From a virus (taxonomy: Duplodnaviria > Heunggongvirae > Uroviricota > Caudoviricetes): a DNA stretch of 12,786 nt. The DNA is taken from the IMG/VR virus record IMGVR_UViG_641736225_000032. One strand, 5' to 3'. Below, in pieces: positions 3,001 through 6,000 of this stretch; the first letter of the stretch is position 1; each line of letters begins with the position of its first letter. Made by a program: the position numbers.

Positions 3001-6000
3001 CGAACATGGCTAAAGAACTGGCGATGGTCGAACGCACTGAACAGGGCCGCGCAATTCGCCAGTACTTCATCAAATGTGAAGAAGAGCTACACAAGGCAGC
3101 GCCGGAACGTGCCGCAGCTTTGCGCCGTGAACTGAAAGCGCGTGTCACCGTTGCCAGTTTTTTTAAGCCTATGTGCGCTGCGCGGGAGTTGTACCGCGCA
3201 GAGTTGGGAAAAGAGACTCATCAACACCACTACACCACAGAATCAAATATGCTGGCGCGTATCGTGCTGGGCGGCATGACGGCGAAACAATGGGCGCAGG
3301 CGAACGGCATCAAAGGAAAACCGCGTGACAGCATGAGCGTTATGCAGCTTGAACACCTTTCCTACCTTGACCAGAGCAATATCACGCTGATTGAGTTGGG
3401 TATGACTTACCAGCAGCGAAAAGCCGAATTAATCCGCCTTTCACAGCGCTGGCTGGCCCGTCGCATGGGAGAGCATGAACATGCCTGACATCCGCAACGC
3501 TGCCGCCCTGTACATCGACACGGCGGATACGTTCGCACAACTGAGCCTCAACCATTCTGATTACATGCACCATATCGTGAGCCATTTCGCCGCTGAGCGC
3601 ATGAAACACGTTAAGCATTATCAGAAGGAGGTTTTATTAAATTATCGCGCTGGTGGCCCTGTATGGCGCGAATATCCGCATGATGCAGGAATGGCAGGCA
3701 AAACAAAGGCGACCACGGAAGGGTCGCCAATGGAGATAAAGGAAATCAAGCGCATCACCAACTATGCCATGAGTGTAGCTGGTGGACAAGGCTATCAGCC
3801 AGGCGGTCGGTTTTTAGTGGCTTTTAACCGCCGTGGGTATTTCTCGACAAAATCTTCAAGGGCAAATCGTGTTGGCCTGGTGAGTGGCAGTGGATTAAGT
3901 AACAACCTCCTTTGCCGTTGTGCTTTTTCGCGCTGTCGCTCAAGTATGGATAATGCGATTTCCTGTAATTCTTCATTTGTCATTGTCTGTACCCGTAAAG
4001 CGGTGCGCTGTAGTACCTCATATCACAGCGCAGGTATTTTTTATGGTTGTAATTTGCGTGATGATTCAGGTCGCTTTGCGACACACTGCATAAACATAAA
4101 TAACGTGATGTTATTATGTGCTTTCAAAGAAAACGCAGGTATTTTTCGCACAAACTTCTCTCGCAACACATCCGACCACTTAAGCAAAAAAGCGGCATAT
4201 ACTGAGGCTATCCCTTATAAAACGGGGATCGGGATTGGCCTCCCGCTGGAGTTAGAGGCGATACACGACGCGCCAGCGTCTTTTTTTTTGTATCGGCGCA
4301 CACGCACACCTCAACAATGGTGGGCTGTATGGAACTTCCTTCGGGAAGGCTGGTTTCCTCTAACACCAGTAAGGCCAATTCCGTACAGTCCACCGCCAGC
4401 AAGATTGGCCTCTTGGGCGGTGGGTATAATCCCAAAGTCAGAGGAGCCTTTCACATGGCTGTATCCGCACGCCCTTACTTTGTCTGGCGCTTTATGCAGT
4501 GCCTGACAGACAGCATTGCAATATTCACCGTTACCGCTGCCACTGAGCGCGAAGCACGCGCCCGGCTGCCGCACGCACATCTGATTTTTGTCGCCCGTAT
4601 CCGTCAGGAGGTGACTCATGCTTAAAACCTTCCGCGTCTTTTCCCGTGCTGTTAACAAGCGCGGCCATACCATCGGCATCACACAGAACGTGAAGGCCGA
4701 AAACGTCCAGGCTGCAATCAGCACAGTAATTAACAAATCAGCTAAAGCCGGTTTATCCGGCGTAATTATCCACGCAGTTACATGTATTCAGGATGAGGAG
4801 TAATTCATGTGTGATTTTTCCGATATGACTGTTGATGAAGCAGCAAAAAGCGCAATGCAGGCAGAACTTATTTGTTCTCTGATGATGGGTAACACAGGTG
4901 GAATGACTGAGGGTGAGATTGAGTCATTGCTCGCCCTGATTAAGCAGCTTACAGGTAAGGCAGGTAGCTGGCTGATTGCTGCATCGGGTGATGATGCAAT
5001 ATGCGTCAATGACTGAATCCTTTGTTGTTCTGAATATCATGAAATTAAGGGGGTGCAGTAATGCAGCAAATAACACTGGCAGAAGCCTCACTGCAAGCGC
5101 AACAGGTCGAAGTAATCAGCCGCATGATTGAACGCAACCACGAAGAAATAGACGACCATAACCTTTCTGTTATTGCAGGACTTATCAAACAACTTTCCAG
5201 CAATGTGGCGGTGTGGTTAATGACGGAGGAAGAAAAACGCGGCGAACAATAACGGCTAAAAATAAACGGGAAATAAGGATTAAGACGACTCCTTCAGGAG
5301 ATTAATTCAATGGCATCAAAAAATACTGGCTTAACTGCCAGTAGCAAAACTCACCCCGAATTTATGTGCGGGGATATTTACCGCAATGAATACGGTAGCC
5401 ACATGACGATGATCAGCAGAGGTAAGAAATGAAAAGCGCACCGAACTTAAAAAAACAGCCTCGAGGGAAAAAACACGCCGATACGGAAGTGATTATTTTC
5501 GCTGGCAGTGATGCGTGGGCGCACGCGAAACAGTGGCTGGAGCAGGACGGAAAACTTGCCGGAGATAATATACCGCCCGTCGTGCTGGCTGATGAGCAAC
5601 TTAAAGATATTGGCAATCTGCAAATTGTACCCGACGGGCGCAAATCAGCGCGTATATACAAGGCCGGACACCTCGATCAGGTGATGGTCAAAGGCATAGG
5701 TCAGAAGCTGGCGGCGGCAGGCGTACAGGACGCAGACTATTACCCCGAAGGTATGCACCATAACGAGCGGCAGAACTGGCGTAACTATCTGGAGACTGAG
5801 CGCAAAAACATTTCTGACGGGCTGGTTATTGAGCTGCCTGTAAAGAAAAAAGAGCGGGGAAAAGGTGATGATGCCACATCACTGGCGCTAAACCAGATGG
5901 GGGCAAGCCAGCGCGGCGAAGTTCTTCTGGCACATTATGGCGGCGAACTGGCAATAAACGCCGACTCTGACACAGTGCATTATTACAACAGTGTTGTATG

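What the first reader, a model, noticed from the sequence alone, without database searches (positions are those of the whole stretch)
4807..5252. Two adjacent small ORFs are diverged tandem paralogs
The 69-aa and 63-aa products share LIKQL followed by six residues and WL at the same spacing (ESLLALIKQLTGKAGSWL versus IAGLIKQLSSNVAVWL) plus a similar N-terminal pattern. A tandem duplication that then diverged is the simplest explanation. The pair sits just upstream of the primase, where P4 encodes small helper-interaction proteins such as Epsilon.
Basis: seen in the sequence. Interest (0 to 1): 0.4.

Follow-up and report, generated by a model that had tools for sequence, protein, structure and literature searches.

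The report
Two stacked alleles, not a duplication
The two small neighbouring genes really are related, but they are two old, long-separated versions of one satellite-island gene placed side by side by recombination between different E. coli islands; their function is unknown and the case is fairly ordinary.

Summary
Observation confirmed; interpretation only partly right. ORF1 (4807-5016, 69 aa) and ORF2 (5061-5252, 63 aa) align without gaps over 54 residues. The score is 10 SD above shuffles (0 of 5000 reach it). Both match PHROG 1478 and both are predicted two-helix hairpins.

They did not arise by local duplication followed by divergence. The window is an E. coli PICI/P4-like island. Close relatives carry ORF1 alone or ORF2 alone in the same slot. 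The window is 97-98% identical to ORF1-only islands on both sides. It carries a ~0.28-kb patch (5038-5318) from an ORF2-only-type island. Directly upstream of ORF2 lies a 23-nt remnant of the upstream 61-aa gene's 3' end, 100% identical to the intact gene end in ORF2-only islands.

In the tree, ORF1 and ORF2 sit on opposite sides of the deepest split, and synonymous sites between them are saturated (pS 0.83). Of 111 family-bearing loci, 103 have one copy. The 8 with two all share one identical junction, which occurs in 101 of 5,426 complete E. coli genomes.

No relation to P4 epsilon was found. Function remains unknown. A small protein-binding module with allele-specific targets is my inference.

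The parts
4618..4803 (+). 61-aa gene (phrog_3672), the conserved upstream partner of the family. Codons 1-54 are the common E. coli type. The last 7 codons (4780-4803, T-C-I-Q-D-E-E-stop) are the variant that travels with ORF1.
   Evidence: phrog_3672 E = 2.9e-24. 4618-4779 is 98% identical to ORF1-only L021 and 96% to ORF2-only L013. 4780-4806 is 93% identical to L021 and absent from L013.
4807..5016 (+). ORF1, 69 aa, phrog_1478 member of the 'ORF1 clade'; two-helix hairpin.
   Evidence: 98% DNA identity to the single gene of ORF1-only islands L021-L026 up to position 5001. Clade with P0142/P0138/P0139 at 100% bootstrap.
5002..5037 (.). 36-nt junction filler of unknown source. It supplies the last five codons and stop of ORF1 plus 21 nt of spacer.
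   Evidence: Absent from both ORF1-only and ORF2-only relatives. Identical in all seven other two-copy loci. No source found among the fetched loci.
5038..5060 (+). Recombination scar: remnant of the 3' end of a 61-aa gene (H-E-I-K-G-V-Q-stop, with the stop overlapping ORF2's ATG). It now serves as ORF2's Shine-Dalgarno region.
   Evidence: CATGAAATTAAGGGGGTGCAGTAATG is 100% identical to the intact 61-aa gene end plus next-gene ATG in L013, L016 and L003. 23/23 identity to L013.
5061..5252 (+). ORF2, 63 aa, phrog_1478 member of the 'ORF2 clade'; two-helix hairpin.
   Evidence: 97% DNA identity to the single gene of ORF2-only islands L013-L016. Purifying selection, pN/pS 0.02-0.06 with 13-15 synonymous changes.
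5253..5318 (+). Right part of the imported patch: spacer and start of the DUF4222 stub, of ORF2-only-island type.
   Evidence: 85% identical to L013 and unrelated (48%, mostly gaps) to L021.
5326..5380 (.). Probable right-hand homologous crossover zone.
   Evidence: This stretch is identical in the window, L021 and L013. Downstream of it the window returns to 97-98% identity with L021 (alignment).
5310..5432 (+). 40-aa stub of a DUF4222 gene (internal deletion relative to the 86-99-aa gene); its stop overlaps the primase start.
   Evidence: Matches DUF4222 genes of related islands. The same ~173-bp deletion is shared with L021.
5429..7252 (+). D5/P4-family primase-helicase, downstream end of the same operon.
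   Evidence: Pfam D5_N, DUF5906, Pox_D5; TIGR01613; phrog_864 E = 4.5e-184.

Best explanation
ORF1 and ORF2 are true homologs: two-helix hairpin proteins of PHROG family 1478, function unknown. They are two anciently diverged alternative forms ('cassette alleles') of one positional gene. That gene normally occurs once, between a translationally coupled 61-aa gene and the primase, in the AlpA-driven early operon of E. coli PICI/P4-like satellite islands. It also occurs in the early-left region of some lambdoid prophages. SHOWN: one recombination event between two different islands placed them in tandem. An ORF1-type backbone acquired a ~0.28-kb patch (remnant of the 61-aa gene end + ORF2 + spacer) from an ORF2-type island. 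The right crossover was homologous, in the 5' part of the DUF4222 gene. The left junction was illegitimate, just inside the end of ORF1, with a 36-nt filler. The recombinant then spread and is now in about 2% of complete E. coli genomes with both genes intact. INFERRED: both genes are co-transcribed with the primase operon. Each hairpin probably acts by binding another protein of the host or helper phage, with allele-specific target preference, so carrying two alleles may broaden the range. The molecular target is unknown.
For: Homology.
Three architectures among near-identical islands:
- ORF2-only, L013-L016.
- ORF1-only, L021-L026.
- Two-copy: window, L001, L008-L012, L020.
Mosaic identities, window vs ORF1-only L021 | vs ORF2-only L013 (breakpoints):
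- 4440-4617: 98% | 87%.
- ORF1: 98% | absent.
- Remnant 5038-5060: none | 100%.
- ORF2: absent | 97%.
- 5253-5318: 48% | 85%.
- 5319-5432: 98% | 85%.
- Primase: 97% | 57%.
Scar: the sequence upstream of ORF2 is identical to the intact 3' end of the 61-aa gene in single-copy islands.
Age of the split: ORF1 and ORF2 share 44% nt identity and pS = 0.83 (saturated), and 9 of 15 identical residues use different codons. The flanks differ from their single-copy relatives by only 2-15%.
Phylogeny: ORF1 clusters with single-copy P0142, P0138 and P0139 (100% bootstrap). ORF2 clusters with single-copy L013 (100%) inside the E. coli 63-aa clade (97%).
An exhaustive phmmer search with ORF1 finds relatives at 48% and 41% identity that are single copies in the same slot.
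Copy-number survey with a family HMM: 2 copies only in the window lineage (8 loci), 1 copy in 23 other loci and in all 80 viral-contig loci.
The junction is base-identical in all two-copy loci and present in 101 of 5,426 complete genomes at 99% identity or more in 99 of them.
Co-resident islands exist: strain 2015C-3121 has an ORF2-only and a two-copy island.
ORF2 is under purifying selection.
No promoter- or terminator-like site lies on the + strand between the Icd-like gene and the primase.
Allelic variants of other PICI genes are an established theme (PMC6092414).
Against: - The ORF1-only architecture was seen only in draft assemblies (P0142 on 194 contigs) and in none of the 5,426 complete genomes.
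- The source of the 36-nt filler is unknown.
- The direction of the event (ORF2 patch into ORF1 backbone, rather than the reverse) rests on the identity pattern only.
- ORF1 shows too little variation to test selection on it.
- Nothing bears directly on function. There are no Pfam, NCBIfam or PADLOC hits, and no significant sequence or fold match to solved or viral structures.
- The functional part is therefore inference from size, fold, operon position and cassette-like replacement.
Confidence: 0.82

Rival explanations
1. One reading: a local tandem duplication of one small gene in this island lineage, followed by divergence of the two copies (perhaps very fast divergence of ORF1).
For: The two genes are adjacent, co-oriented and clearly homologous. 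The repeated unit includes a copy of the preceding gene's 3' end, as a tandem duplication would produce.
Against: ORF1 and ORF2 are each far closer to single-copy genes of other islands than to each other. Synonymous sites between them are saturated, while the flanking DNA is 97-98% identical to ORF1-only islands. The non-coding remnant upstream of ORF2 is 100% identical to the functional gene end in single-copy islands rather than diverged like the genes. The ORF2 patch has a different identity profile from its flanks.
Confidence: 0.04
2. An ancient tandem duplication at the root of the family. One or the other copy was then lost in every other lineage, and ORF2 was later homogenised by gene conversion from ORF2-only islands.
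For: The ORF1/ORF2 split is the deepest node of the sampled family. In Pseudescherichia and Kosakonia loci a phrog_1478 member lies one small ORF away from a member of the sister family phrog_8959, so multi-member arrangements of this superfamily do exist.
Against: It requires many independent losses: 103 of 111 loci are single-copy, covering all clades. The two-copy state occurs with only one invariant junction. The junction contains a fresh remnant of a 61-aa gene end and an unrelated filler. ORF1-only islands carry their own 76-bp sequence with a native-looking DUF4222 start (MKRKYSG...). That start resembles L004's (MKLKYSG...) and cannot derive from the two-copy form by deletion.
Confidence: 0.08
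3. One of the two ORFs (most likely ORF1 with its altered C-terminus, or ORF2 separated from its matched 61-aa partner) is a non-functional passenger on its way to decay, so the pair has no joint function.
For: A 1-nt indel near 4996 plus the junction replaces ORF1's C-terminal ...GDMQ-stop with ...GDDAICVND-stop. The neighbouring DUF4222 gene is already a 40-aa stub. ORF1 variation is too low to demonstrate selection.
Against: The junction query matched at 99% identity or more in 99 of the 101 genomes that carry it, and the listed hits have two 'hypothetical protein' annotations under the match. Both ORFs keep good ribosome-binding sites. ORF2 alleles within two-copy islands differ by 14 synonymous and only 2 non-synonymous changes. 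The altered ORF1 tail lies after the second helix.
Confidence: 0.1

Closest known systems
PHROG family phrog_1478 (and sister family phrog_8959), e.g. Salmonella phage Fels-1 STM0898.6n
   Same: Both ORFs are full-length members: about 63 aa, a two-helix hairpin, and conserved A-x-Q-x-E in helix 1 and L-x3-L...W-L in helix 2. Members sit in early operons of temperate elements.
   Different: The family has no known function. Elsewhere it is single-copy per locus. The window lineage is the only one seen with two phrog_1478 members side by side.
Allelic variants and modular mosaicism of Gram-negative PICI genes (AlpA, Pri-Rep, Int, PerC; Fillol-Salom et al. 2018, PMC6092414)
   Same: Same island class: int, an AlpA-type regulator, a unidirectional operon, the primase, ori iterons, and PerC. 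The same phenomenon applies: sharply bounded alternative alleles exchanged between otherwise near-identical islands.
   Different: In the described cases one allele replaces another. Here the exchange was imprecise on the left side, so the incoming allele was added next to the resident one instead of replacing it.
P4 epsilon (helper derepression protein) and the other small proteins upstream of the P4 alpha primase
   Same: Position only: small proteins encoded between the regulatory region and the primase of a satellite.
   Different: No sequence or profile similarity to epsilon, ORF106/DUF5375 or ORF151 (hhalign probability 0.24% or less). The family is absent from P4. The island lacks sid, psu and delta.
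Lambda exo-xis region small proteins orf61 / orf63 (DUF1382) / orf60a
   Same: Similar sizes (61 and 63 aa) and location in the early-left operon of a temperate phage.
   Different: No detectable similarity. This was a lead from memory that failed the test.

Membership tests
phrog_1478 small-protein family | Significant full-length match to the family profile | tested here: met
   ORF1 E = 2e-12 (residues 5-58 on profile 2-55/63). ORF2 E = 8.4e-18 (1-62 on 1-62/63). ORF1's relatives P0138, P0139 and P0142 also match.
phrog_1478 small-protein family | Shared fold and architecture between the two ORFs | tested here: met
   Both are predicted as two long helices joined by a short loop, with helices at equivalent alignment positions.
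Locally generated tandem paralogs (duplicate, then diverge) | Pairwise similarity above chance | tested here: met
   z = 10.4, 0 of 5000 shuffles reach the score; BLASTP E = 2e-7.
Locally generated tandem paralogs (duplicate, then diverge) | The two copies are each other's closest relatives relative to single-copy homologs in related elements | tested here: not met
   ORF1-ORF2 identity is 29%. ORF1-P0138 is 48%, ORF2-L013 is 87% and ORF2-L004 is 44%. The NJ tree places them in different clades at 97-100% bootstrap.
Locally generated tandem paralogs (duplicate, then diverge) | Copies and their flanks share one history (no mosaic breakpoints, no foreign scar) | tested here: not met
   The segment-wise identity switch and the 61-aa-gene remnant that is 100% identical to single-copy islands.
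P4 epsilon-type helper derepression protein | Sequence or profile similarity to P4 epsilon | tested here: not met
   hhalign probability 0.06%. tblastn of both ORFs against 50,697 phage records finds no P4 match.
P4 epsilon-type helper derepression protein | Binds and inactivates the helper prophage repressor | not testable with these tools
   Needs interaction or derepression assays.
P4-like satellite (P4 proper) | Capsid-size and late-control genes sid, delta and psu | tested here: not met
   No such Pfam or PHROG hits among the window ORFs. P4's own set is shown.
Gram-negative PICI (EcCICFT073 class) | int, an AlpA-type regulator and pri in one direction, with ori repeats downstream of pri | tested here: met
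   Integrase 1-1323; HTH_17/Phage_AlpA 2261-2572; primase 5429-7252; CTGTTCACC iterons 7255-7500. Definition from PMC6092414 and PMC10111431.
Gram-negative PICI (EcCICFT073 class) | Helper-phage-dependent induction and packaging | not testable with these tools
   Requires induction and transfer experiments.
Lambda exo-xis orf61/orf63 proteins | Sequence or profile similarity | tested here: not met
   hhalign probabilities of 0.33% or less; no BLASTP alignment between the two 61-aa proteins.

The most novel reading that the evidence does not exclude
phrog_1478 hairpins are specificity modules in an arms race, for example binders of a helper-phage or host protein that decide which helper induces or is blocked by the island. 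They would work together with the 61-aa partner, whose last seven residues switch together with the hairpin allele (HEIKGVQ with the ORF2 type, TCIQDEE with the ORF1 type). Stacking two alleles would then be a selected way to widen helper or host range. That would explain why one recombinant spread to about 2% of E. coli genomes across several pathogenic serotypes.
Probability: 0.12. Interest if true: 0.55.

Novelty: new member of a known kind. Interest (0 to 1): 0.2.

Why it matters
This is mainly a cautionary case. Adjacent diverged homologs in mobile elements need not come from local duplication. Here the DNA shows allele stacking by recombination between co-circulating satellites.

It also defines a conserved, uncharacterised two-gene cassette (phrog_3672 + phrog_1478) in the early operon of E. 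coli PICI-type satellites and some lambdoid prophages. The cassette's hairpin gene exists as sharply bounded, deeply diverged alleles on near-identical backbones, a pattern typical of specificity or conflict genes. The three natural architectures (ORF1-only, ORF2-only, both) give a ready-made comparison set for testing what the protein does. In itself the finding is modest: hypothetical proteins in a known island class, explained by a known evolutionary process.

Tried and rejected
1. P4 analogy: profile comparisons with P4 epsilon, ORF106 and ORF151 were all negative, and P4 has no family member.
2. Lambda exo-xis orf61/orf63/orf60a (a size coincidence recalled from memory): negative.
3. Idea that the 73-80-aa 'position 3' proteins of islands L003-L007 and the Fels-1 neighbour (phrog_5796/2196/20558) are distant paralogs. 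A weak BLAST hit of E = 4e-4 in a tiny database prompted it. hhalign probability is 1%, so it was rejected.
4. Functional annotation:
- Pfam and NCBIfam gave only sub-threshold noise.
- PADLOC gave nothing.
- PDB sequence profile: best E = 0.018, a designed repeat protein.
- Foldseek vs PDB: best E = 1.5.
- Foldseek vs BFVD: best E = 0.69.
- These are generic helical hairpins and not informative.
5. Source of the 36-nt junction filler: not found in any fetched locus.
6. dN/dS for ORF1: alleles are nearly invariant, so there is no power. Comparisons involving L019 (contig end) and L020 (6-nt insertion) are out of register and were ignored.
7. Covariation with primase type: none. ORF1-only, ORF2-only and two-copy forms all occur with D5-type or DUF927-type primases. 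This argues against a primase-specific accessory role.
8. The word-indexed protein search reached only close E. coli and Salmonella relatives. The exhaustive search was needed to find ORF1's relatives.
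Full report
1. THE OBSERVATION

The window has an ATG ORF at 4807-5016 (69 aa, ORF1) and another at 5061-5252 (63 aa, ORF2), both on the + strand. Each is preceded by a good Shine-Dalgarno sequence.

BLASTP aligns residues 4-57 of ORF1 with 1-54 of ORF2 without a gap: 15 identities, 27 positives, pairwise E = 2e-7. The Smith-Waterman score of 67 compares with 22.7 +/- 4.3 for 5000 shuffles (z = 10.4; none reach it). The global score has z = 6.8.

Independent evidence agrees. Both proteins match the same PHROG family, phrog_1478, at E = 2e-12 and 8e-18. AlphaFold2 gives the same two-helix hairpin for both: ORF2 pLDDT 91.9 with helices 6-29 and 32-62, ORF1 pLDDT 81.5 with helices 9-28 and 35-59.

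2. CONTEXT

The focal kilobase is 100% identical to chromosomal islands of many E. coli strains, for example O103:H2 12009, next to yicC. RefSeq calls both ORFs 'hypothetical protein'. Overall the window is 94% identical to that island, so it comes from a related strain.

Gene order in the window:
- tyrosine integrase (1-1323)
- 240-aa ORF
- AlpA/HTH_17 regulator (2261-2572)
- AntA antirepressor (2640-3488)
- ash-family remnant
- Icd-like gene (ends about 4625)
- 61-aa gene (4618-4803, phrog_3672)
- ORF1
- ORF2
- 40-aa DUF4222 stub (5310-5432)
- D5/P4-family primase (5429-7252)
- iteron-rich spacer
- SSB
- ProQ/FinO
- PerC
- further downstream, an antiterminator-Q gene

No + strand promoter-like or terminator-like site lies between the Icd-like gene and the primase, so one operon is likely. 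There is no sid, psu or delta.

This is the Gram-negative PICI organisation: int, alpA and pri are unidirectional, the ori lies downstream of pri, and PerC alleles are carried (PMC6092414, PMC10111431, PMC11773190). It is not P4 proper.

3. ONE COPY OR TWO IN RELATED ISLANDS

Among islands with near-identical flanks there are three architectures.

(a) ORF2-only (L013-L016). The 61-aa gene ends H-E-I-K-G-V-Q-stop and overlaps the ATG of a 67-aa ORF2-type gene. A DUF4222 gene and the primase follow.

(b) ORF1-only (L021-L026). The 61-aa gene ends T-C-I-Q-D-E-E-stop. A 64-aa ORF1-type gene (P0142) follows, then 76 bp, the DUF4222 stub and the primase.

(c) Two-copy. This comprises the window, L001, L008-L012 and L020.

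More distant E. coli islands (L003-L007) have one 63-aa member followed by an unrelated 73-80-aa gene and a full DUF4222.

An exhaustive phmmer search of 1.84 billion representatives with ORF1 found only two further relatives, P0138 (48% identity) and P0139 (41%). Each is the single family member between a 67-aa phrog_3672-like gene and the primase of another island.

A family HMM run over every fetched locus gives these counts:
- two copies only in lineage (c), 8 loci;
- one copy in 23 other loci, including five other Enterobacterales genera and Salmonella phage Fels-1;
- none in P4;
- exactly one copy in all 80 IMG/VR loci, which carry 36 distinct variants.

Total: 103 single-copy and 8 two-copy. 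The IMG/VR loci were retrieved with motifs typical of the 63-aa clade, so that part of the sample is biased towards that clade.

4. THE DNA SHOWS HOW THE PAIR AROSE

Segment-wise identities of the window to ORF1-only L021 and to ORF2-only L013 (breakpoints seen first):

| Window segment | vs ORF1-only L021 | vs ORF2-only L013 |
|---|---|---|
| 4440-4617 | 98% | 87% |
| 4618-4779 (61-aa gene, codons 1-54) | 98% | 96% |
| 4780-4806 (TCIQDEE-stop) | 93% | absent |
| 4807-5001 (ORF1) | 98% | absent |
| 5002-5037 (filler) | absent | absent |
| 5038-5060 (remnant) | essentially absent | 100% |
| 5061-5252 (ORF2) | absent | 97% |
| 5253-5318 | 48% | 85% |
| 5319-5432 | 98% | 85% |
| 5433-5800 (primase) | 97% | 57% |

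The window is therefore an ORF1-type backbone carrying a ~0.28-kb patch from an ORF2-type island.

The left end of the patch is a scar. CATGAAATTAAGGGGGTGCAGTAATG, directly upstream of ORF2, is base-for-base the 3' end of the 61-aa gene (HEIKGVQ-stop) plus the overlapping ATG, as found intact in L013, L016 and L003. Here it no longer ends any gene, and it provides ORF2's ribosome-binding site.

The right crossover lies in a stretch identical in all three sequences (about 5326-5380). The left junction is illegitimate, with a 36-nt filler whose source I could not find. A 1-nt indel near 4996 together with the filler gives ORF1 a new tail...GDDAICVND instead of ...GDMQ.

The 60 nt spanning the junction are identical in all seven other two-copy loci. 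This holds even where ORF2 differs from the window's at 14 synonymous sites. The junction occurs in 101 of 5,426 complete E. coli genomes, at 99% identity or more in 99 of them, across O157:H7, O103:H2, O111:H8 and O145 strains. That indicates one founding event followed by spread and later homologous exchange.

About 13 complete genomes carry the ORF2-only junction and none carries the ORF1-only junction. The ORF1-only form is known from draft assemblies only; P0142 is on 194 contigs.

Different islands of this class can share a cell. Strain 2015C-3121 has an ORF2-only island and a two-copy island.

5. AGE OF THE SPLIT

ORF1 and ORF2 share 44% nucleotide identity in the aligned register. Synonymous differences are saturated (pS = 0.83), and 9 of the 15 identical residues use different codons. 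Their flanks differ from the single-copy relatives by only 2-15%.

In a neighbour-joining tree (500 bootstraps), ORF1 groups with the single-copy proteins P0142, P0138 and P0139 at 100%. ORF2 groups with single-copy L013 at 100%, inside the E. coli 63-aa clade at 97%. The Salmonella/Fels-1 proteins fall outside that clade. The ORF1/ORF2 split is the deepest node.

Divergence therefore long predates juxtaposition. The pair consists of two stacked alleles of one positional gene. It is not a local duplication that later diverged.

Two alternatives were weighed. The first is an ancient duplication with loss everywhere else. It needs many independent losses, and it does not explain the single invariant junction, the fresh remnant, or the native 76-bp sequence of ORF1-only islands. 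That 76-bp sequence has a DUF4222 start (MKRKYSG...) resembling the one in L004 (MKLKYSG...) and cannot derive from the two-copy form by deletion.

6. ARE BOTH GENES MAINTAINED?

ORF2 is under strong purifying selection. Window vs L009 gives 14 synonymous and 2 non-synonymous changes, pN/pS = 0.04, and other allele pairs give 0.02-0.06.

ORF1 is almost invariant between ORF1-only and two-copy islands (at most 2 synonymous and 1 non-synonymous change). This shows recency but gives no power to test selection. In the complete genomes listed for the junction query, two 'hypothetical protein' genes are annotated under the match.

7. WHAT THE PROTEINS DO

Nothing is known, and I found no informative similarity:
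- no Pfam, NCBIfam or PADLOC family;
- no solved structure by sequence (best E = 0.018, a designed repeat protein);
- fold matches are generic helical hairpins (best E = 1.5 in the PDB and 0.69 in BFVD);
- no relation to P4 epsilon, ORF106 or ORF151;
- no relation to lambda orf61, orf63 or orf60a.

What can be said:
- The gene is always paired with an upstream phrog_3672 gene in the islands, usually with overlapping stop and start codons.
- It sits in the early, AlpA-dependent operon in islands. In Fels-1 it lies downstream of the repressor gene, in the co-oriented gene run that ends at xis and int; calling this the early-left operon is my inference.
- Its type does not covary with primase type. 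D5 and DUF927 primases occur with every architecture, which argues against a primase accessory role.
- It exists as deeply diverged alleles with sharp boundaries on near-identical backbones.
- The last seven residues of the 61-aa partner switch together with the allele.

My best inference is that these are small protein-binding modules with allele-specific targets in the host or helper phage, and that two alleles may widen the range. Confidence in this is low, about 0.2-0.3. The evolutionary conclusion does not depend on it.

8. COMPARISON WITH WHAT IS KNOWN, AND VERDICT

The island class, the PHROG family and allele exchange between PICIs are all known. PMC6092414 describes allelic variants of AlpA, Pri-Rep, Int and PerC. 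What is specific here is that an imprecise exchange added the incoming allele next to the resident one instead of replacing it, producing the only two-member arrangement of phrog_1478 seen in 111 loci.

This is a new member of a known kind. The 'duplicate then diverge' interpretation and the P4-epsilon analogy are not supported. Interest is low to moderate (0.2).

Noticed in passing
window 5310-5432: The 40-aa ORF just before the primase is a stub of a DUF4222 gene (86-99 aa in related islands). It results from a ~173-bp internal deletion shared with ORF1-only islands, and its stop overlaps the primase start codon.
   Followed up: partly
window 7255-7500: The spacer between primase and SSB is packed with at least 10 copies of a CTGTTCACC-type iteron in both orientations, including a 39-nt imperfect palindrome. 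This fits the replication origin that the literature places downstream of pri in Gram-negative PICIs.
   Followed up: partly
L009-L016 4001-4204 (ORF2 homologs); window 5121-5132 equivalent: Most ORF2-type alleles are 67 aa because of a 12-nt tandem duplication that repeats R-M-I-E inside helix 1. The window's 63-aa allele has a single copy.
   Followed up: no
window 4780-4803 versus L013 3980-4001: The last seven codons of the 61-aa partner gene switch with the downstream allele (TCIQDEE with the ORF1 type, HEIKGVQ with the ORF2 and 63-aa types), while codons 1-54 stay 96% identical. This is either a recurrent breakpoint or co-adaptation of the partner's tail.
   Followed up: partly
L009, L013, L017, L020, L024 versus window, L010, L018, L021: The primase module is swapped (DUF927-type 712 aa versus D5_N/Pox_D5-type 607 aa) independently of the small-gene architecture, on otherwise similar islands.
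   Followed up: partly
L028 3364-3588; L029 3361-3591: In Pseudescherichia and Kosakonia prophage-like loci, a member of phrog_8959 lies one small ORF downstream of the phrog_1478 member. phrog_8959 is a distant sister family (co-linear match to phrog_1478 at E = 2e-4; ORF2 hits it at 2e-7). These regions are arrays of small helical ORFs.
   Followed up: partly
NZ_CP027340.1 (strain 2015C-3121): 323170-331373 (L016) and about 3122136: One genome carries both an ORF2-only island and a two-copy island, showing that the parental island types can co-reside and recombine.
   Followed up: no
window 3475-4625: The long 343-aa ORF is not a gene in RefSeq. The region holds an ash-family pseudogene fragment and a short Icd-like gene. 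Related islands have intact Ash (up to 670 aa) or AntA-Ash fusions, so this segment is decaying or highly mosaic.
   Followed up: no
window 7600 versus L001 12105-12346: Relative to O103:H2 strain 12009, the window lacks about 240 bp between the primase and SSB, where that strain has a 149-aa hypothetical gene. The rest of the island is only 93-94% identical, although the focal kilobase is 100% identical.
   Followed up: no
cluster of P0088: The 90%-identity protein cluster that holds ORF1 also lists 61-aa phrog_3672 proteins (e.g. P0143, P0144) as members. These are unrelated in sequence to ORF1, so this is probably a clustering artefact of the database.
   Followed up: no
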